NCBI GenBank assembly: GCA_026415505.1
Contig: JAOAGY010000019.1
Coordinates: 7,485-71,484, forward strand
DNA: 64,000 nt
Source: Chlorobiota bacterium
GTDB taxonomy: Bacteria; Bacteroidota; Ignavibacteria; Kapaibacteriales; NICIL-2
Reading direction: 5' to 3'
The notes beneath the pieces were generated by a model. The model saw only the letters and a program-made list of their open reading frames with translations. It was not told the origin of the DNA and did no database searches. Within the stretch, counting starts at the first letter, position 1. Every line of letters starts with the position of its first letter. This document shows positions 21,409 to 64,000 of this stretch, one piece after another. The translations under genes and the position numbers were made by a program.

Positions 21409-21432
21409 CGTGCGAAAAAATTTTTTCGCACG
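21409..21432. promoter_or_regulatory. Perfect 24-bp palindrome CGTGCGAAAAAATTTTTTCGCACG upstream of a promoter
   Basis: Read directly. Centre is about 24 bp upstream of the -35 at 21445. Confidence 0.6.
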
Positions 21433-21444
21433 TGCAAATTTCTC

Positions 21445-21473
21445 TTGTAAAATCGCTTTCGGTTTTGTAGTAT
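21445..21473 (+). promoter_or_regulatory. Sigma70-type promoter of the histone-like gene
   Basis: TTGTAA (21445-21450), 17-bp spacer ending in TG, TAGTAT (21468-21473). Confidence 0.65.
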
Positions 21474-21517
21474 TGCGATGCATTTTGTTTGTACCACTTT
21501 AGTACAAAGAGGTCGCT

Positions 21518-56539: not shown

Positions 56540-57541
56540 TTACTTTTTCGGTTGGTTCGACTTTCGTGTGGTGGATGCTTTTTTCGGGGTCGCTTTCGAT
56601 GAAGTTTTCTTTGCGGGTGTTTTTGCGGGAGTCTTTTTCGGTGCAGCGCCGAGAACGTCAGCGACCGTGCGTCCGATGTGCGCCGGCGACTCGACGACAT
56701 GCACGCCGGCACGACGGAGCGCAGCGAGCTTAGCATCGGCTGTGCCTTTGCCGCCACTGATGATCGCGCCGGCATGTCCCATGCGGCGCCCGGGCGGTGC
56801 AGTGCGTCCTGCGATGTACGCAACGACGGGCTTGCGCACGTGTGCAGCGATGTATTCGGCTGCTTCTTCTTCGGCGGTACCGCCGATTTCACCGATGAGC
56901 ACGATCGCTTCGGTTTGCCGATCGGCATTGAACAGCTCCAACGCATCGACAAAGCGCGTCCCGACGATCGGGTCGCCACCGATACCGATGCACGTGCTCT
57001 GTCCGATGCCGAGCGAGGTCAATTGCCAGACGGCTTCGTAGGTGAGCGTTCCCGAACGCGAGACGACACCGACCGGACCGGGCGTTGCAATGAAACCGGG
57101 CATGATGCCGATTTTGCATTCGCCGGGCGTGAGCAAGCCGGGACAGTTCGGTCCGACCAGCCGCGAACGCGAGCCACGAAGCGCTGCCCACACGGTGCGC
57201 ATGTCGCGAACCGGTATGCCTTCGGTGATGGCGACAATGAGGGGCACTTCTGCTTCGATCGCTTCGAGTATGGCATCGGCTGCCATCGGTGCGGGAACGA
57301 AAATGCACGTCGCATCGGCACCTGTTTCGGCAACCGCTTGGCGGACAGTGTCGAAGACGGGAACCTCGCGCCCGAACTGATCGCTACCTTTGCCGGCATA
57401 GGGCATGCCGCCTTTGCCGGGAGTGACACCGCCGACGACATTGGTGCCGTAGGCAATCATCTGGGCGGTGTGAAACGTGCCTTCCGAGCCTGTGATGCCT
57501 TGCACGATGAGCCGTGTCCGGCTATTGCAGAGGATGCTCAT
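56540..57541 (-). CDS. sucD: Succinyl-CoA synthetase alpha subunit with a Lys/Ala/Pro-rich tail
   Basis: [35 protein letters not shown]. Start at ATG 57541. Confidence 0.96.
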
Positions 57542-57614
57542 AGAAACGCCGAAAAGTCGTGTGTGACTGTCAACAGGCTGCAAAGTTACGGCATCGGCTT
57601 CTCCGCAAGACAAA

Positions 57615-57642
57615 CGGCGCACCGCTCGACAGCAGTGCGCCG
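57615..57642 (-). terminator. Cassette-boundary terminator hairpin H1
   Basis: Minus strand CGGCGCAC-T-GCT-GTCG-AGC-G-GTGCGCCG followed by TTTGTCTT. The 33 bp at 57610-57642 are identical to 59349-59381. Confidence 0.75.
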
Positions 57643-57668
57643 CTGCTTTCGTTTTTGTCGGGGGTCAC

Positions 57669-58406
57669 CTATTTGCTCGATGCAGGAAGAACAAATGTGC
57701 TCGAAAGTCCCTGACGCTCCGACAACGACATTACTTCCCAGTAATAGCGACCTGGCTCGACCGGCGGTAATTGCAAACGAACGATATGCTCGCCAGCAGT
57801 CGTAAGAGTTGTCGTTTCGGTTTTGATAACTCGCTCGGATTCGTCCGACGATCGCTCGAAGACACGAACGGTTACATCCATCGGCTTTTTGACCCGACAG
57901 TGCAGATCGAGCGATGCTGCTTCGCCATTCCAGTGTGCGAAGACAGTATCGAAAACGAATGCGTAACGACGAAGCTTCGAACGTGTCCGGAAATCAAGAC
58001 CAGCCGGCAATTCAATCGAAGGAAGAATCACTTCTACCGAATCACTCGAACAGCCGCGTTGGACCGTTGCCATGACGTTCCCATCGGCATCAGTCACCTG
58101 TACACTCCAACCGTTCGAGCCTGATTGGCAAACGACCGGTGCAAACGACGCCGTTGCCCAACCAGAAACATATCCTATCGTTCGCTTGCCAGTCATGCCG
58201 ATCGGTCCCTCGCAAATCGATCCATCGCATTCATGGACGACTTCCCAGTCGTGCTTGCCATCACCATTACGATCCTCGATGACACGCCATCCCCACCCGC
58301 CATTCGGTCCAGGGCACTGCCAATAGCTATACAATGGATCGGCAGCCTTCCCATAAAGACTCAGCGCAGCAAGTACCATCGTGACTGCAACTATCGTCGT
58401 TTTCAT
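57669..58406 (-). CDS. Secreted Cys-rich protein with a DRNGDG loop and a C-terminal Ig/CTD-like domain (paralog P1)
   Basis: GGAGG RBS 7 nt before ATG 58406. Signal peptide. N-domain aligns with 58423-59121. Confidence 0.75.
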   Translation of the reverse strand: MKTTIVAVTMVLAALSLYGKAADPLYSYWQCPGPNGGWGWRVIEDRNGDGKHDWEVVHECDGSICEGPIGMTGKRTIGYVSGWATASFAPVVCQSGSNGWSVQVTDADGNVMATVQRGCSSDSVEVILPSIELPAGLDFRTRSKLRRYAFVFDTVFAHWNGEAASLDLHCRVKKPMDVTVRVFERSSDESERVIKTETTTLTTAGEHIVRLQLPPVEPGRYYWEVMSLSERQGLSSTFVLPASSK

Positions 58407-58422
58407 GACCATTCCTCCGTCG

Positions 58423-59121
58423 TTAGCGAGACAGAACAAACGGGATAAACTGCGCATTCGATTTGTGTCGAACGACTGCAATATAAATGCCATCTGGCAA
58501 ATTGCTCGGCAGCTCAATTGTCAGCCGTTCATTGCCTGGACTCGACCAGACGCTTTGATGCACACTCTGCCCAGTGGATGAATAAACTTCGATACTCACT
58601 CGACCATCGAAATCGCCGGTAATTGTCACTGTGCCCATTGTTGGGTTGGGAGAAACTCTCGCCACCGATACATCGCCAGGGATGTGGCTGATGAGCCCCG
58701 AGGCATAAACGATTTGTGGGAGTGAGTCTCCACAGGTTTGGATTACCGACCCAAGCAGTAACGAATCCTGTGTGTACAAGTCAACCCGCCAGAGCCATCG
58801 CCCATTCTCACACCGTGAGGAGGTAAAATCCACTCTGAATGGTTGTTCGGCAATTGTCCCAATGGGATGTGCTACCATTTGAATTGGCTGCGAGCAGAGC
58901 GACCCATCGCATCCTCTGACTGTGATCCAGTCATACTGACCATCACAGTTGCGGTCTTCCCTTACTGACCATGCAACACTGCCGTTCGAACATGTAATGG
59001 TTGTAAACTGCGGAGGAAGACAATCCTTCTGCATATCGCAGATATTGTGGGCAGGGTTGTCTCCTGCGTATGCCTGTACCAGACACGCAAGGACACAGAG
59101 AAGAAGCGGGATAGTGTTCAT
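58423..59121 (-). CDS. Secreted Cys-rich protein with a T9SS type-A sorting tail (paralog P2)
   Basis: Signal peptide. CTD-like SPNPTMGTVTI...IEVYSSTGQSV...LPDGIYIAVV. Confidence 0.8.
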   Translation of the reverse strand: MNTIPLLLCVLACLVQAYAGDNPAHNICDMQKDCLPPQFTTITCSNGSVAWSVREDRNCDGQYDWITVRGCDGSLCSQPIQMVAHPIGTIAEQPFRVDFTSSRCENGRWLWRVDLYTQDSLLLGSVIQTCGDSLPQIVYASGLISHIPGDVSVARVSPNPTMGTVTITGDFDGRVSIEVYSSTGQSVHQSVWSSPGNERLTIELPSNLPDGIYIAVVRHKSNAQFIPFVLSR

Positions 59122-59158
59122 GTTTACCTCACTATTGTTTGTACACTCTTTCCACCGT

Positions 59159-59395
59159 CCCTGCTGGCGCGGCAGGTGTTATCCCACGTGCAGTGGAATG
59201 TCGGCGATGCGCCGCGCATCTCATCCCCGTACATCCACTGCAGCCAGACAACACTCCAGGGGAATAGGTGGCACTGCGAATGTAAAAAAAAAAAAAAATT
59301 AATTCTCAATGAATTTTTCGCCTCTTGCAAAAAAATTTTTTCTCGATAACAAACGGCGCACCGCTCGACAGCAGTGCGCCGTCGCTGGGTGTGTT
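59159..59395 (-). repeat. Cassette head, copy A: terminator H2, AT-tract, promoter with T15, structured leader
   Basis: Collinear with 63161-63395. Identical 30-mer TTAATTCTCAATGAATTTTTCGCCTCTTGC. H2 at 59354-59381. Confidence 0.92.
59279..59309 (-). promoter_or_regulatory. Putative sigma70 promoter with a poly(T)15 spacer (19 bp)
   Basis: TTGAGA (59309-59304), ATTAA plus T14, TACATT (59284-59279). Confidence 0.55.
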
Positions 59396-59436
59396 GTCGG
59401 AGAACATACCAGGAGTAGCGATCGCTCAGCTTTTCC

Positions 59437-60915
59437 CTACGGCTGTACAAGAAGCGGCAGCGTAATAATGCGCTCGCCATTGTTGAGTCGCAAGAAGTAC
59501 ATTCCTGGTGGCAGTTCAGGAAGCTGTGCCGAATACGTCCCCGCCTGGTGCCACCGATCGCATATGATCGCTACCTGCCTCCCTCCAAGGTCGAACAACG
59601 ACAGACGAACTGTACTCGGTGTTTCGATACTGTAGCGGATGGTATGCCCCGACGTTACAAACGTTGCCGTTTCCTCGATGGGCAAGGCTACCGAAGTAGT
59701 AGTTGTATCGATAATCCACGATGCAATGTAATTGACTCGAACATTAGCAGCACCGGCATTGGTAAATCCACCACCGACGTAGAGCCGATGACCATCATTC
59801 GAAAGCGTGGTCACGCGTCCATTGACACCCGATTCGAGTGTATCCCATTTGTTTTGATCGAAATCATACACAGCAATATTCCGTGCGGGTATCGTTCCTG
59901 CTTGATCGAAACTCCCACCGACGTACAGACGACGCCGCTGCTTGTCGAGATTCATCGAGAAGACCGCATAGTACTTGACTTGTGACGTCGCAGTATCGCG
60001 CCACACACCACCGCCGAGAGTACTCCATTGTTGCCGACGAGTGTCGTAAATGAGCAAGCCGCGCGCCTCTATTTGCCCGAAACGATCGAACTGTCCCCCG
60101 ATGATGAGACTGTCCCCTACACCAACAATCGCATTTGCAAGGACTGCATCGTCAGCAGAGCTGACCTTGAAATGTGCGCCGGGCACGCTGTCCCACTGCT
60201 GGGATTGGCTATCGTACCGAGCAATGCCTACAGCCCGCTTGCCATCAACGTGTGTAAACGCGCCAATAGCGTAGAGAGACTCCCCGACTTTGGCGACCGC
60301 ATCCACAGATGCTCCACCGAAGAGCGAATCGTCGAGCTGTTCGAATCTCCCCAATCCTTGCCATTTGCGCGTTTGCAGATTGTACTTGGCAAGACCCGAT
60401 GCAGCGACATTTTCTATGCTATCGAATGAACCACAGACGTAGAGATCGTCACCATCTCGATAAAGGTTGAACACGCCTTGTAAACCTCCGCTGATGTTGC
60501 TTGCAAAGCACTCCCACTCTTGCGTTCGGGTATTCCATGCAGCAAGAGATTGGCACGGATTGTTACCAGCGTTTTCGAATAAACCACCGACGACAAGCAG
60601 TGTATCGCCATCGCGCACAATAGGTAGAATCGCGTGAACATTCCCATCAACCCCCGCACCGAGCGCGTACCACCGCCGGTCGGTCCAGTTCCATCGTGCG
60701 ATCATCGAGGTATTCATTCCCCCAGCACGAGTAAATATGCCCCCGACATAGAGGTTCTCTCCCATCGGTACGATAGAGTAAATCAGAGGAACCGGGGAAT
60801 AGAGACCGCTACCCAATGCTTGCCAGCGTGTCGTGGGTTGTGCAGTGGCAAGCACAACCACCAACGCGGTAATGGAAAACAATGCGATTATGTTGCGAAT
60901 CGTTGCCATCGTCAT
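59437..60915 (-). CDS. Secreted beta-propeller protein with a T9SS type-A sorting tail
   Basis: Repeats of WxxLGxG...LYVGGxFxxAG...IAxW. CTD-like SLFDLGGRQV...LPPGMYFLRL. Confidence 0.82.
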   Translation of the reverse strand: MTMATIRNIIALFSITALVVVLATAQPTTRWQALGSGLYSPVPLIYSIVPMGENLYVGGIFTRAGGMNTSMIARWNWTDRRWYALGAGVDGNVHAILPIVRDGDTLLVVGGLFENAGNNPCQSLAAWNTRTQEWECFASNISGGLQGVFNLYRDGDDLYVCGSFDSIENVAASGLAKYNLQTRKWQGLGRFEQLDDSLFGGASVDAVAKVGESLYAIGAFTHVDGKRAVGIARYDSQSQQWDSVPGAHFKVSSADDAVLANAIVGVGDSLIIGGQFDRFGQIEARGLLIYDTRRQQWSTLGGGVWRDTATSQVKYYAVFSMNLDKQRRRLYVGGSFDQAGTIPARNIAVYDFDQNKWDTLESGVNGRVTTLSNDGHRLYVGGGFTNAGAANVRVNYIASWIIDTTTTSVALPIEETATFVTSGHTIRYSIETPSTVRLSLFDLGGRQVAIICDRWHQAGTYSAQLPELPPGMYFLRLNNGERIITLPLLVQP

Positions 60916-62723
60916 TTGTCGTGATGTGAGACATCATGCAAGGAAAAGTACACAAGTGATGTTTCGAGAGAAGACTGGTATAGACCTGCAATCTTTTTAC
61001 GTGATGCATCGTACGCAATATCGATAAAACCTTGCCCGAGATATTGTCGTGGTAATTGCACTTCAGCGACCAGTGTCGCTGTTCCAAGATCATATTGCTG
61101 TAGAATCCAGTATCCACGTTCGGGCATGTCAAGAGGGAAGCCAAGTTCTTTCACTTTCCAAAGTACGAACACGCTCGACGGTGTTAGAATTACTCGTTGT
61201 ACCCTCGCACCTGCAGAATCGAGGAGATACTCAACCTCACGGGCTTTCGGAACAGCCGTTCGCCGCGACAATCTGTTGGTGTCCAACATTCCAGCATTCC
61301 AATAGTGTTTGAGCTTAATTGTGCGCCCATCACTGAGTTGAACTTCTGGTACGAGCCACTGCACCCAGCCACATAATCCATTTGTTTGATCACAACTAAG
61401 ATGCTCTGCCCCATGAACGGCTAACCCCAGTCCATGCTTTTTACCGATCGCCTCATCGAGTACACCCAGCGTAGAATCACGGAACATGCCGGTGGCTAGA
61501 TTAAATGCTCCATAAAGTGGAGCATACGTGTAAAACGAATCAGCAATAGGATTCTCAAACGGGTTCCGAGCCAACAATGTATCTGACCCCATAGCCAGAT
61601 ACCCTCGACGGAAGGGTAAATAGAAATTCTCTTTCCCAAGCACAAAACCACTCCCAGGATGAAATGTCCCTTCGGCACAATAGTCACCAGTGCAATAGGT
61701 GCGAGTCATTGGCTGAAATTCAGCAATTTGCACAATCTTTTGGAATGGAGGTTCGTACGCAAGAATGTAGTAGCACTTGTCTATGCCAATATTCTCTGCG
61801 CTGAAATGCCTAACATACGCGCTAATCTGAATTGTCCACAATAGTGAGTCTTGAAATTGCGGTTGACACAAGTTACCTACGAGATACCTCTTGATAGCCT
61901 TGTATTCGCTATCGATAAGAAACCACGTGCGTCCCCGTGATGCAGCTGGATTGGCTACAATGTGGGCAGCCTGTGAACCCTTAGAGACATCAAATACTCG
62001 AATCCCTTGCGTGTAAAAATCCAGTGCTGCAAACCACCTACCATCGGATGAGAAAACTGGTGAGAACAATTGACCAGTCATAGTTGTACTGTCATCTTGT
62101 AAACGGACACGACTCACCATTTCGACAATAGGACATGATACTTCTGGTGTACCAACAGAGATCGCATGAAACTGCTTTCTCACTGTTTGGAGATACCCTC
62201 GGGGCAGCAATGGCGAATTCGTAGCATTGAGTGAATCCATAAAGTAGCTGAGTTTATCACCTGTCGGTGCATGGTTCACCTGTGCCCACCACCACAGAGT
62301 ACCTGTAGAATCCCATACTGTCATCCATGGGAGCGATGGCTCCCACGCATTTATGGGCTTGAGTAGAACACCTGTGGTATCAATTACTACACGGCACTTC
62401 CACTGATTGGCACGGACGTATGCATAATCCGCATAGTAACGCTTTCCACGGACGATTGCGCTAACAGAACCCGAGAATTTAGCCTTCTGCAAATCCTCAC
62501 TCAGCTTTCCAATCAGTGCTTCTCCCCAGAAAAACGAGCGAGGTGCTGAAACGATAAAGATGACGTGAAACCGCGCCTTATTGTTTTGCTGGCGGATAAA
62601 CTCATGGATAACACTCGAACGCCCGGCGAACCGGAAGATGCTTGTTTTCTCTACGTACTCGTCCTCACTTTGGCTGAGAACAACCATTACACATCCCAGA
62701 AATATTGCAATGAATCGTTTCAT
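60912..62723 (-). CDS. Secreted protein with a thioredoxin-like N-domain (no CxxC) and a beta-propeller-like C-domain
   Basis: 603-aa AT-richer ORF with a signal peptide. Stop overlaps the next ATG (ATGA). Fold assignment is by sequence pattern only. Confidence 0.6.
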   Translation of the reverse strand: MKRFIAIFLGCVMVVLSQSEDEYVEKTSIFRFAGRSSVIHEFIRQQNNKARFHVIFIVSAPRSFFWGEALIGKLSEDLQKAKFSGSVSAIVRGKRYYADYAYVRANQWKCRVVIDTTGVLLKPINAWEPSLPWMTVWDSTGTLWWWAQVNHAPTGDKLSYFMDSLNATNSPLLPRGYLQTVRKQFHAISVGTPEVSCPIVEMVSRVRLQDDSTTMTGQLFSPVFSSDGRWFAALDFYTQGIRVFDVSKGSQAAHIVANPAASRGRTWFLIDSEYKAIKRYLVGNLCQPQFQDSLLWTIQISAYVRHFSAENIGIDKCYYILAYEPPFQKIVQIAEFQPMTRTYCTGDYCAEGTFHPGSGFVLGKENFYLPFRRGYLAMGSDTLLARNPFENPIADSFYTYAPLYGAFNLATGMFRDSTLGVLDEAIGKKHGLGLAVHGAEHLSCDQTNGLCGWVQWLVPEVQLSDGRTIKLKHYWNAGMLDTNRLSRRTAVPKAREVEYLLDSAGARVQRVILTPSSVFVLWKVKELGFPLDMPERGYWILQQYDLGTATLVAEVQLPRQYLGQGFIDIAYDASRKKIAGLYQSSLETSLVYFSLHDVSHHDK

Positions 62724-62765
62724 TGGACTCTCCGCAGATCTAAGCCGTCTTTCACAAAGAAATAC

Positions 62766-62801
62766 GGTACTGCAGGGCCGCCGCTATAGCCCTGCAGTAC
62801 C
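62766..62801 (-). terminator. 13-bp perfect hairpin between the small Cys-rich gene and its partner (attenuator or stabiliser)
   Basis: GGTACTGCAGGGC-10 nt-GCCCTGCAGTACC, followed on the minus strand by GTATTTCTTTG. Confidence 0.7.
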
Positions 62802-62813
62802 AACTCTGGCGAT

Positions 62814-63146
62814 TCAGGGAAGCAGAACATAGGCTTCCGTTCCTTCTTGGTTAGTCCCGGTGAAGATGCACTCCGACTGGAACGATTGCGAGCCAAAGTC
62901 GAAGAGATACAAATCGTCTGGGAATGGACTACCAACTCGGACGCCCACTTGGATTTCTGCACATTTGTGAGTGCAATTCCCTTCACACCAAACCCGCCCA
63001 TTTTCGTAGTGTCCTTCGCAGCCATAGAGAGTAATTTTTCCCTTGTCAATCCCCAGAGCGTACACCTGACTCACGCTCAGCAATGCCCCTGCCAAGAGTG
63101 CTTTCGCAAGGAATCTCATCGGGATGCTCCACAGTTTGTTGAACAT
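62814..63146 (-). CDS. 110-aa secreted Cys-rich protein
   Basis: GGGAGGG RBS 9 nt before ATG 63146. Signal peptide ending VYA. Five Cys in the mature part. Confidence 0.75.
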   Translation of the reverse strand: MFNKLWSIPMRFLAKALLAGALLSVSQVYALGIDKGKITLYGCEGHYENGRVWCEGNCTHKCAEIQVGVRVGSPFPDDLYLFDFGSQSFQSECIFTGTNQEGTEAYVLLP

Positions 63147-63160
63147 GCTTTTATTCCCTC

Positions 63161-63395
63161 CCCGGCTGGCGCGGCTTGTGTCGCGCTCATCGCAGCAGAC
63201 CTCGAGAAACGCCGCGCCCCTTGTCTCTCCGCCAACTGCAACGACGCAACACAACAGCCGGGAAGAAGCGGCACGACAAAAGTAAAAAAAAAAAAATTAA
63301 TTCTCAATGAATTTTTCGCCTCTTGCAAAAAATTTTTTTACCCAGACAAAGAGCGGCGCACCGCATCGCTGCAGTGCGCCGTCGCTGGGTGTGTT
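63161..63395 (-). repeat. Cassette head, copy B: terminator H3, AT-tract, promoter with T13, structured leader
   Basis: Collinear with 59159-59395. H3 at 63354-63381 shows a compensatory GCT/AGC to GCA/TGC change and a GCGA (GNRA) loop on the minus strand. Confidence 0.92.
63279..63307 (-). promoter_or_regulatory. Putative sigma70 promoter with a poly(T)13 spacer (17 bp)
   Basis: TTGAGA (63307-63302), ATTAA plus T12, TACTTT (63284-63279). Confidence 0.55.
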
Positions 63396-63405
63396 TGTTG
63401 CCGGA

Positions 63406-64000
63406 TTATCGAGCTTCGGAGCGTAGTGCCAAGTGTTGCAAATCAGCCAGAGTCAGCCGCCGCCCGCCCAAGAATCGCTTGCGGTAGTACGTGCTTTCCA
63501 GCGAGGATATTGTCACACCATACCGAGAGCTCGCGTGAGCGAAAAGGTTGTCGCCCAAGTAAATCCCCACGTGCGACACCCACGCATGACTGCGCGTGTG
63601 GAAGAAAATCAAATCGCCGAACCGAAGCTCCTCGGCTCGCTCGATGGGCTGACCGTAGGCGAATTGTTCCTGCGCAGTACGCGGTAGCAGTGCTCCCGCA
63701 CAGGCTCGGAACAGAGCCTGCATGAACGCCGAACAATCGATACCATCGGCGCTGCTTCCCCCGAAGCGATAGGGACGACCGAGCCACTCCATGACGAAGT
63801 CCATCACTTTCCGCTGCGACAGCCCCGATGGCAACTCCTCCCCATCGAGATACGCCATCCACAGCGCGCGTATCGTCGCGATGTCCACCTGAACGTCGTC
63901 TTCGCGGGCGACTTCCTCGGCGTCGTCACCGTCGAGAACGTTCGTAGCGGCGCTGTCGCGCAATCCCGCCAGTTGTTGCAACGTCGGCGATGCCTGCGAC
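63406..64000 (-). CDS. NlpC/P60 family peptidase, 5'-truncated by the window edge
   Basis: WLGRPYRFGG, GIDCSAF, LPRTA, GDLIFF, SHVGIY, FAHAS. Frame is open to the window end. Confidence 0.93.
   Translation of the reverse strand, partial: SQASPTLQQLAGLRDSAATNVLDGDDAEEVAREDDVQVDIATIRALWMAYLDGEELPSGLSQRKVMDFVMEWLGRPYRFGGSSADGIDCSAFMQALFRACAGALLPRTAQEQFAYGQPIERAEELRFGDLIFFHTRSHAWVSHVGIYLGDNLFAHASSRYGVTISSLESTYYRKRFLGGRRLTLADLQHLALRSEAR

What the first reader, a model, noticed from the sequence alone, without database searches (positions are those of the whole stretch)
59279..63307. Homopolymer tracts between -35 and -10: candidate phase-variable promoters in different states
Seen: TTGAGA-ATTAA-T13-ACTTT (63307-63279) gives 17-bp spacing to TACTTT. 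TTGAGA-ATTAA-T15-ACATT (59309-59279) gives 19-bp spacing to TACATT. Established: slipped-strand changes in promoter spacer homopolymers switch surface-protein expression (Mycoplasma hyorhinis vlp, Neisseria porA). Inference: each cassette toggles independently, with T13 ON and T15 low or OFF. An alternative reading is TTGCAA-17bp-GAGAAT with the tract at the start site (reiterative transcription). Homopolymer length is also prone to sequencing error.
Basis: partly seen in the sequence, partly recalled or inferred. Interest (0 to 1): 0.8.

Follow-up and report, generated by a model that had tools for sequence, protein, structure and literature searches.

The report
Variable poly-T tracts in cassette promoters
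Two secreted-protein gene cassettes of a hot-spring Kapabacteria-type bacterium start with near-identical promoters holding a 13- or 15-base run of T, and this run varies from 8 to 15 bases among related strains, so it is probably a mutation-prone expression dial, though switching is not shown.

Summary
T13 (63296-63284) and T15 (59298-59284), both on the minus strand, are the only homopolymers longer than 7 nt in the 64-kb window. They sit in a 56-nt module that is otherwise identical in the two copies.

The promoter reading needs correcting. The organism is Kapabacteria-like (Bacteroidota). The last T of each tract starts a Bacteroidota -7 box, TAnnTTTG. The same box precedes sucD and both tRNA genes in the window. 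A TTG lies 20 nt (copy A) or 22 nt (copy B) upstream of the box. A covariation-supported leader RNA begins 12 nt after the box.

Related assemblies have a pure T tract at the same place, with 8, 9, 12, 13 or 14 T. Within one allele, assemblies differ by one base: T8/T9, T13/T14, and T14/T15 for copy B.

The tract is therefore a conserved, length-unstable promoter part. I rate slippage-driven tuning or switching of secreted and T9SS protein cassettes at about 0.5. It is unproven: no raw reads, no TSS data and no expression data were available. The specific claim "T13 ON, T15 OFF" is not supported. If true, this is a new member of a known kind, in an unusual lineage and promoter type.

The parts
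63354..63381 (-). Terminator-like hairpin CGGCGCACTGC-AGCGAT-GCGGTGCGCCG after the NlpC/P60 gene. It is the first of three copies that bound the cassettes.
   Evidence: (family D1). Relatives with an empty site carry a single copy.
63327..63339 (-). A7T6 block at the upstream edge of promoter module A.
   Evidence: A similar A6T6 lies upstream of another strong promoter at 21413-21476.
63299..63313 (-). Short palindrome AATTC-ATTGA-GAATT. It contains the -33-like TTG (63307-63305) and is a possible operator.
   Evidence: Read from the sequence. Conserved in L010, L025 and L026. Function not tested.
63284..63296 (-). T13 tract of cassette A.
   Evidence: Logan contig of X1 also gives 13.
63277..63284 (-). 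-7 box TACTTTTG, a perfect TAnnTTTG. It shares its first T with the tract.
63147..63272 (-). Structured 5' leader of cassette A. Helix 1 pairs 63264-63255 with 63168-63159. The inner helix pairs GCGCGGC (about 63217-63211) with GCCGCGC (63175-63169). The predicted TSS lies at about 63272-63269.
   Evidence: 97% of cells paired and 10 compensatory pairs. The TSS position is inferred.
59437..63146 (-). Cassette A genes. A1 is a 110-aa Cys-rich secreted protein (63146-62814). A2 is a 603-aa secreted protein of unknown family (62723-60912). A3 is a 492-aa Kelch propeller with a T9SS tail (60915-59437).
59354..59381 (-). Second copy of the terminator-like hairpin.
59329..59341 (-). A6T7 block of promoter module B.
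59284..59298 (-). T15 tract of cassette B. The Logan contig of X1 gives T14.
59277..59284 (-). -7 box TACATTCG, which matches 5 of the 6 specified positions of TAnnTTTG. The TTG at 59309-59307 gives a spacer of N22.
59122..59272 (-). Structured 5' leader of cassette B, with the same fold as leader A.
57669..59121 (-). Cassette B genes. B1 is 232 aa with a T9SS sorting domain (59121-58423). B2 is a 245-aa paralogue (58406-57669).
57615..57642 (-). Third copy of the hairpin. It is followed by the sucD -7 box TAACTTTG at 57588-57581.

Best explanation
Each tract is the spacer of a Bacteroidota-type housekeeping promoter, built as -33 TTG, then 8 nt plus the T tract, then the -7 box TAnnTTTG. The promoter drives a structured-leader mRNA for a cassette of secreted or T9SS-exported proteins. 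The cassettes sit in a hypervariable islet between the NlpC/P60 and sucD genes.

The tract gains and loses bases by replication slippage. This changes the distance and the helical phase between the upstream elements (TTG, a small palindrome, an AnTn block) and the -7 box, and so retunes or shuts off the promoter separately for each cassette. The behaviour would be that of a contingency-locus rheostat or switch.

Shown here:
- The position of the tract relative to the -7 box.
- Conservation of the tract across deep divergence.
- Length change between and within alleles.
- The secreted nature of the cargo.
- That the organism uses TAnnTTTG boxes.

Inferred:
- The TSS.
- That tract length affects transcription.
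- That changes are frequent and reversible within a clone.
For: 1. The tracts are extreme outliers. Nothing else in the 64-kb window exceeds 7 nt. In about 250 kb of related loci, every run of 8 or more lies in this islet's regulatory DNA.

2. The promoter type is supported. TAnnTTTG lies 8 nt upstream of tRNA-Cys, 39 nt upstream of tRNA-Gln and 39 nt upstream of the sucD ATG. Relatives are named Candidatus Kapabacteria. The published consensus is TTG-N17-23-TANNTTTG for Flavobacterium, and the sister group Chlorobi uses a similar form (PMC2483708).

3. Seven tract alleles were found, six with known flanks: TACTTTTG, TACATTCG, TACGTTTG, TAGGTTTG (twice, in different modules) and TAAGTTTG. All six keep TA and TTTG, except TTCG in copy B, while the 'nn' positions vary.

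4. A leader RNA fold with strong covariation begins 12 nt after the box. Of its cells, 97% are paired against 31-52% in slid controls, and 10 of 20 pairs carry compensatory changes that 0 of 500 shuffles reach. This fixes where transcription must start.

5. Tract length census:
- Window copy A: T13.
- Window copy B: T15 in the window, T14 in the Logan contig of X1.
- L010-type allele: T13 in five runs, T14 in X13.
- X14-type allele: T9 in X14/L026, L025, X18 and X19; T8 in X6, X10 and X11.
- L004-type allele: T12 in five assemblies.
- L029-type allele: T8 in two assemblies.

6. Promoter modules I and II have unalignable flanks, and their A2 proteins are only 44% identical. Both still keep a pure T tract abutting the -7 box. 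That argues for selection on the tract.

7. Copies A and B are identical over 56 nt but differ in tract length. The tract therefore mutates faster than its flanks.

8. The cargo fits a contingency locus: signal peptides and T9SS tails, and a cassette count of 0, 1, 2 or more among strains.
Against: - No raw reads were available, so heterogeneity within a population is unproven. One-base differences between assemblies could be PCR stutter or assembler error. A Nextera adapter was seen in X1.
- Consensus length is stable within an allele across many samples: T13 five times and T12 five times. Classical phase-variable loci differ more between isolates.
- The -33 TTG is poorly conserved at other promoters of this genome. 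Only 3 of 13 TAnnTTTG sites have a TTG at 15-24 nt. Spacer length may therefore matter less here.
- No allele sits at the N19 spacing that I recall (from memory of Chen et al. 2007, not checked) as optimal in Flavobacterium.
- The T9 allele, with an N16 spacer, still carries three intact genes. It is unlikely to be permanently off.
- No TSS or RNA data exist for this locus.
Confidence: 0.5

Rival explanations
1. The tract is a static promoter element. The poly-T run is a rigid, easily melted, AT-rich spacer or UP-like element that makes a strong constitutive promoter in a 58% GC thermophile. Its length drifts neutrally by slippage, with little effect on expression.
For: - The -33 element is weak genome-wide.
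- Lengths from 8 to 15 all coexist with intact cassettes.
- Consensus length is stable within allele lineages.
- Another strong promoter in the window also uses A/T blocks.
Against: - If AT-richness were all that mattered, T-to-A changes would be tolerated. Yet every allele has a pure T run.
- Observed lengths fall into two groups, T8-9 and T12-15, with no T10 or T11. With only seven lineages this is weak evidence.
- The short allele L029/L030 carries a nonsense codon in A2.
Confidence: 0.35
2. One reading: the promoter is TTGCAA-17-GAGAAT, transcription starts inside the T tract, and reiterative (UTP-sensitive) transcription controls expression.
For: TTGCAA at 63328-63323 and GAGAAT at 63305-63300 are 17 bp apart. 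T runs at start sites do support reiterative transcription in E. coli pyrBI, codBA and upp (established knowledge).
Against: - GAGAAT is not a Bacteroidota -7 box.
- In module II (L004, L029) the tract follows TTGCAA directly, with no upstream promoter.
- The conserved TAnnTTTG downstream of the tract would be left unexplained.
- The cargo is unrelated to pyrimidine metabolism.
Confidence: 0.05
3. One reading: a sigma-70 promoter with -35 TTGAGA and -10 TACTTT or TACATT, where 17 bp is ON and 19 bp is OFF.
For: The geometry is as described.
Against: - The -10 matches at only 3 of 6 positions, and the sigma-70 scan calls nothing there.
- The phylum uses -33/-7 promoters.
- The orthologous T9 allele would have a 13-bp spacer yet keeps intact genes.
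Confidence: 0.05
4. The length difference is a sequencing or assembly artefact and the tracts have no biological variability.
For: Copy B is T15 in the window but T14 in Logan contigs of the same sample. The library was Nextera with PCR.
Against: The four-base difference between T9 and T13 on 96%-identical flanks is reproduced in independent JGI and Logan assemblies and in several runs. T12 versus T8 in module II is reproduced in 5 and 2 assemblies.
Confidence: 0.05

Closest known systems
Helicobacter pylori sabA promoter T tract (Goodwin et al. 2008, PMC2715451; rheostat model of Aberg et al. 2014, the latter from memory)
   Same: A poly-T run of about 13-18 nt next to core promoter elements of an outer-surface protein gene. 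Its length varies among strains and is proposed to tune expression through promoter geometry.
   Different: In H. pylori the tract lies beside the -35 of a sigma-70-type promoter in a host-adapted pathogen, and the effect has been tested. Here the tract abuts the -7 box of a -33/-7 promoter in a free-living thermophile, and nothing has been tested.
Promoter-spacer homopolymer phase variation: Neisseria porA and opc, Mycoplasma hyorhinis vlp, Bordetella fim (reviewed in PMC11868660, PMC1891110)
   Same: A homopolymer lies between two promoter elements, surface proteins are the cargo, and several cassettes each have their own tract.
   Different: Those spacers are tuned around 17 bp for sigma-70, and switching rates have been measured. 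Here the spacers are 15-22 nt under a different sigma specificity, and reversibility is unknown.
Bacteroidota -33/-7 promoter: TTTG ... TAnnTTTG in Bacteroides fragilis, TTG-N17-23-TANNTTTG in Flavobacterium (quoted in PMC2483708 and bioRxiv 10.1101/172254)
   Same: A perfect TAnnTTTG box with a TTG 20-22 nt upstream, and the same box at the tRNA and sucD genes of this genome.
   Different: Published examples have mixed-sequence spacers. I found no report of a long homopolymer spacer, or of SSR-based variation, in this phylum.

Membership tests
SSR-mediated promoter phase variation (contingency locus) | A homopolymer long enough for slippage (about 8 nt or more) | tested here: met
   T13 and T15 in the window. 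Relatives have T8-T14.
SSR-mediated promoter phase variation (contingency locus) | The tract lies between or against core promoter elements | tested here: met
   The tract ends in the first T of TAnnTTTG, and a TTG lies 8-9 nt before the tract, in both module lineages. The TSS itself has not been mapped.
SSR-mediated promoter phase variation (contingency locus) | Length polymorphism among close relatives with otherwise identical flanks | tested here: met
   T8 versus T9, T13 versus T14 and T14 versus T15 within single alleles. T9 versus T13 on flanks that are 96% identical.
SSR-mediated promoter phase variation (contingency locus) | Length heterogeneity within a clonal population, at high and reversible frequency | not testable with these tools
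   Only assembled contigs of the runs were served. No raw reads were available.
SSR-mediated promoter phase variation (contingency locus) | Expression changes with tract length | not testable with these tools
   No RNA runs hold the locus.
Bacteroidota sigma-A -33/-7 promoter | A -7 box TAnnTTTG | tested here: met
   Copy A is perfect. Copy B matches 5 of the 6 specified positions. Relatives are perfect.
Bacteroidota sigma-A -33/-7 promoter | A -33 TTG or TTTG 17-23 nt upstream | tested here: met
   N20 for copy A and N22 or N21 for copy B. The short alleles give N15-16, which is outside the range.
Bacteroidota sigma-A -33/-7 promoter | The host uses this promoter type | tested here: met
   The same box lies upstream of both tRNA genes and of sucD. 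Relatives are named Kapabacteria or Bacteroidota.
   TACTTT and TACATT match at 3 of 6 positions, and the scan reports no site at either tract.
Reiterative-transcription control (pyrBI, codBA, upp type) | A TSS inside the T run, served by a promoter upstream of it | tested here: inconclusive
   A candidate upstream promoter exists only in module I. It is absent in module II. No TSS data are available.

The most novel reading that the evidence does not exclude
The NlpC/P60-sucD islet of hot-spring Kapabacteria is a true contingency locus in a free-living thermophile. Each secreted-protein cassette would carry its own slippage switch, toggling between a short state (T8-9, spacer N15-16, off or low) and a long state (T12-15, spacer N20-22, on) of a -33/-7 promoter. 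In sister lineages the same cassettes and the same leader RNA are instead placed under a divergent sigma-region-4-like regulator that carries its own poly-C tract (13, 15 or 20 C). On this reading the locus evolved two different repeat-based stochastic controls.
Probability: 0.25. Interest if true: 0.7.

Novelty: new member of a known kind. Interest (0 to 1): 0.55.

Why it matters
Repeat-driven promoter switching is known almost only from host-adapted pathogens with sigma-70 promoters. A conserved, length-unstable T tract fused to the Bacteroidota -7 box would extend the principle in two ways. It would show it in a different promoter architecture and in a non-host ecology, where phage or neighbour pressure in mats would replace immune pressure.

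The setting is favourable: a free-living hot-spring bacterium, with cassettes of secreted or T9SS proteins that come and go between strains. The locus also gives a compact natural series (T8, 9, 12, 13, 14, 15) for testing how spacer length acts on sigma-A of this phylum.

Tried and rejected
I could not search the rest of the genome for further module copies or for mutS/mutL.
- Exact 24-mer scans of genome contigs and metagenome contigs found nothing.
- Exact-protein look-ups of B1 and A2 found nothing.
- An Rfam scan of 57000-64000 gave only chance-level hits.
- No RNA runs hold the locus.
- Folding the promoter module as single-stranded DNA gave no significant structure (z = -1.3). I therefore dropped a hairpin or terminator reading of the tract.
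- A2 has no Pfam or PDB sequence relative.
- Chen et al. 2007 (PMC1951883), on spacer-length effects in Flavobacterium, is not held. The 'N19 optimum' is from memory only.
- Literature searches for SSR promoter variation in Bacteroidota or thermophiles returned nothing relevant.
Full report
**Observation**

These are the only homopolymers longer than 7 nt in the 64-kb window. The flanking 32-mer occurs exactly twice, with 0 expected in shuffles.

The two copies belong to a larger repeated module:
- a GC-rich terminator-like hairpin (also called);
- an A7T6 or A6T7 block;
- GCAAGAGGCGAAAAATTCA;
- TTGAGAATTAA;
- the T tract;
- AC(T/A)TT(T/C)G.

Over 56 nt the copies are identical except for tract length and a one-base shift of the A/T boundary. 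The downstream leaders are only about 70% identical.

**Context**

The hairpin occurs three times, at about 63.37, 59.37 and 57.63 kb. It brackets two cassettes inside an islet of lower GC content, 50-53% against 58-63% elsewhere. The islet lies between an NlpC/P60 gene and sucD.

- Cassette A encodes a 110-aa Cys-rich secreted protein, a 603-aa secreted protein with no Pfam or PDB relative, and a Kelch propeller with a T9SS tail.
- Cassette B encodes two paralogous Cys-rich proteins. One has a Por_Secre_tail domain.

A2 has only about ten homologue clusters, all from hot-spring Kapabacteria or Bacteroidota. All sit in the same NlpC/P60-sucD gap.

The gap is hypervariable among relatives about 94-95% identical to the window:
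- X4 and X5 have an empty site with a single hairpin.
- X14 and X18 have cassette A only.
- Candidatus Kapabacteria KatS3mg040 has more cassettes.

**What kind of promoter**

The sigma-70 scan calls nothing at either tract. TACTTT matches TATAAT at only 3 of 6 positions.

The last T of tract A plus the next 7 nt reads TACTTTTG, a perfect Bacteroidota -7 box (TAnnTTTG). Copy B reads TACATTCG. The window has only 13 TAnnTTTG sites. One lies 8 nt upstream of tRNA-Cys, one 39 nt upstream of tRNA-Gln and one 39 nt upstream of the sucD ATG. The organism therefore uses this box.

The published consensus is TTG-N17-23-TANNTTTG for Flavobacterium, with the sister group Chlorobi using a similar form (bioRxiv 10.1101/172254; PMC2483708). 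Here a TTG lies 20 nt (A) and 22 nt (B) upstream of the box. With the Logan tract length, B would be 21 nt.

A third AT-rich promoter in the window, at 21413-21476, has the same layout: A6T6, then N18, TTG, N20, TAGTATTG.

**Comparative test**

Real sequences of orthologous promoters were recovered.

Module lineage I:
- L010 reads ...TTGAGAATTCA-T13-ACGTTTG.
- L025 (JGI) and L026 (the X14 contig) read ...TTGAGAATTCA-T9-AGGTTTG. This matches what I had reconstructed from the difference tables.

Module lineage II has unalignable flanks, and its A2 protein is only 44% identical:
- L004-L007 and L009 read CTCTTGCAAAGTCGC-T12-G-TAAGTTTG.
- L029 and L030 read CTCTTGCAAAGTCGC-T8-AGGTTTG.

In every allele the tract is pure T and runs into a TAnnTTTG box. 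The box's 'nn' positions vary (CT, CA, CG, GG, AG) while TA and TTTG are kept.

**Leader RNA**

The nine available cassette leaders share an RNA fold with strong covariation:
- 97.2% of cells are paired, against 31-52% when the partners are slid.
- 10 of 20 pairs carry compensatory changes, a value that 0 of 500 shuffles reach.

The 5' arm of the fold begins 12 nt after the box. This places the transcription start in that gap and leaves the tract upstream of the transcript.

**Tract-length census (assembly consensus)**

| Allele | Length | Assemblies |
|---|---|---|
| Window copy A | T13 | window; Logan contig of X1 |
| Window copy B | T15 / T14 | window / Logan contig of X1 |
| Minor X1 unitig, different downstream sequence | T14 | X1 |
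| L010-type | T13 | X6, X10, X11, X16/L010, X17 |
| L010-type | T14 | X13 |
| X14-type | T9 | X14/L026, L025, X18, X19 |
| X14-type | T8 | X6, X10, X11 |
| Module II, L004-type | T12 | five assemblies |
| Module II, L029-type | T8 | two assemblies |

Three points follow:
- Length differs by 4-5 nt between alleles whose flanks are 93-96% identical.
- Length differs by 1 nt within three alleles.
- The TTG-to-box spacers fall into two groups, N15-16 and N20-22. No T10 or T11 was seen, but there are only seven lineages.

The short module II allele has an in-frame TAG at codon 280 of A2 in both assemblies. The T9 allele keeps all three genes intact.

**Interpretation**

I take three things as established. 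The tract is a conserved, functional part of a -33/-7 promoter. It is the fastest-changing part of that promoter. It controls secreted or T9SS cargo in a strain-variable islet.

The rest is inference. Length changes would retune or switch transcription by altering the spacing and helical phase between the upstream elements and the -7 box. Those upstream elements are the TTG, the AATTC-N5-GAATT palindrome and the AnTn block. I give this 0.5.

The main rival (0.35) is a static AT-rich spacer whose length drifts neutrally. Its support is as follows:
- The -33 TTG is rarely present at other TAnnTTTG sites here.
- Consensus lengths are stable within alleles.
- Both short and long alleles carry intact genes.

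Both spacers lie in the permissive range, and copy B also has a weaker box. The reiterative-transcription alternative is unlikely, because module II has no promoter upstream of the tract.

**Limits**

- The run data were served only as assembled contigs, which drop minor variants. A Nextera adapter in X1 warns of PCR stutter.
- No RNA data hold the locus.
- The shared 49-nt unitig in X1 has depth 181, against 57 + 69 for the two known copies. Small unitigs of depth 7-18 hint at further copies or strain variants, which I could not resolve.

**Novelty**

Homopolymer promoter variation is a known kind (H. pylori sabA, Neisseria porA and opc, Mycoplasma vlp). I found no report of it in Bacteroidota, in -33/-7 promoters or in thermophiles. 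I file this as a new member of a known kind, with function unproven.

Noticed in passing
window 63147-63272 (-) and 59122-59272 (-); also L001:2440-2630, L001:6440-6625, L002:3130-3295, L004:6435-6600, L010:118-270, L013:2440-2625, L018:2430-2615: All cassette leaders share a structured RNA. An outer 10-bp helix encloses a GYGCGGC/GCCGCRC helix. Of the cells, 97% are paired, and 10 of 20 pairs have compensatory changes that 0 of 500 shuffles reach. There is no Rfam match. The fold is present whichever promoter type drives the cassette, so it is a separate layer of control. In copy A the 3' arm overlaps a GGAGG-like stretch 10 nt before the ATG.
   Followed up: partly
L001:1667-1681, L002:2344-2356, L013:1742-1761, L014/L015:1654-1666, L023:637-651: In relatives that lack the T tract, a divergent 210-aa regulator gene with a sigma-70 region-4-like domain lies next to the cassettes. 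The gene carries a poly-C run of 13, 15 or 20 (G on the locus + strand) just after the HTH domain. Frameshifts change only the last 10-37 residues. It is a second variable homopolymer at the same islet, and its function is unknown.
   Followed up: partly
L001:2350-2400, L001:6353-6410, L017:2714-2722, L018:2349-2356, L002:3030-3090, L013:2395-2450: Regulator-linked loci use a different shared promoter region, AnTn-CGGCAGCRTGTCACAATTTGCCGATTTC..TACATGGG. It has no TAnnTTTG box. Its T run is T6, T8 or T9 in different strains. L013 has a CRP-like palindrome, TGTGACAGTGTCACA.
   Followed up: no
window 57600-63400: The islet between NlpC/P60 and sucD varies in content among strains: an empty site in X4 and X5, cassette A only in X14 and X18, and A plus B in the window. 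Each cassette is bounded by the same hairpin, which suggests gain and loss by recombination at the hairpin and promoter repeats.
   Followed up: partly
L029:5164-6993 and L030:3559-5388: The A2 orthologue behind the short (T8) module II promoter has an in-frame TAG at codon 280 in two independent assemblies. This may be decay of a silent cassette.
   Followed up: partly
window 62765-62802 (-): A 15-bp GC-rich hairpin with a T-rich tail lies between A1 and A2. It is a possible internal attenuator or terminator that would uncouple the small Cys-rich protein from the downstream genes.
   Followed up: no
window 21413-21476 (+): This is the only other strongly AT-rich intergenic stretch in the window. 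It has an A6T6 palindrome, then TTG, N20 and TAGTATTG. It has the same promoter layout as the cassette modules, without a long tract.
   Followed up: partly
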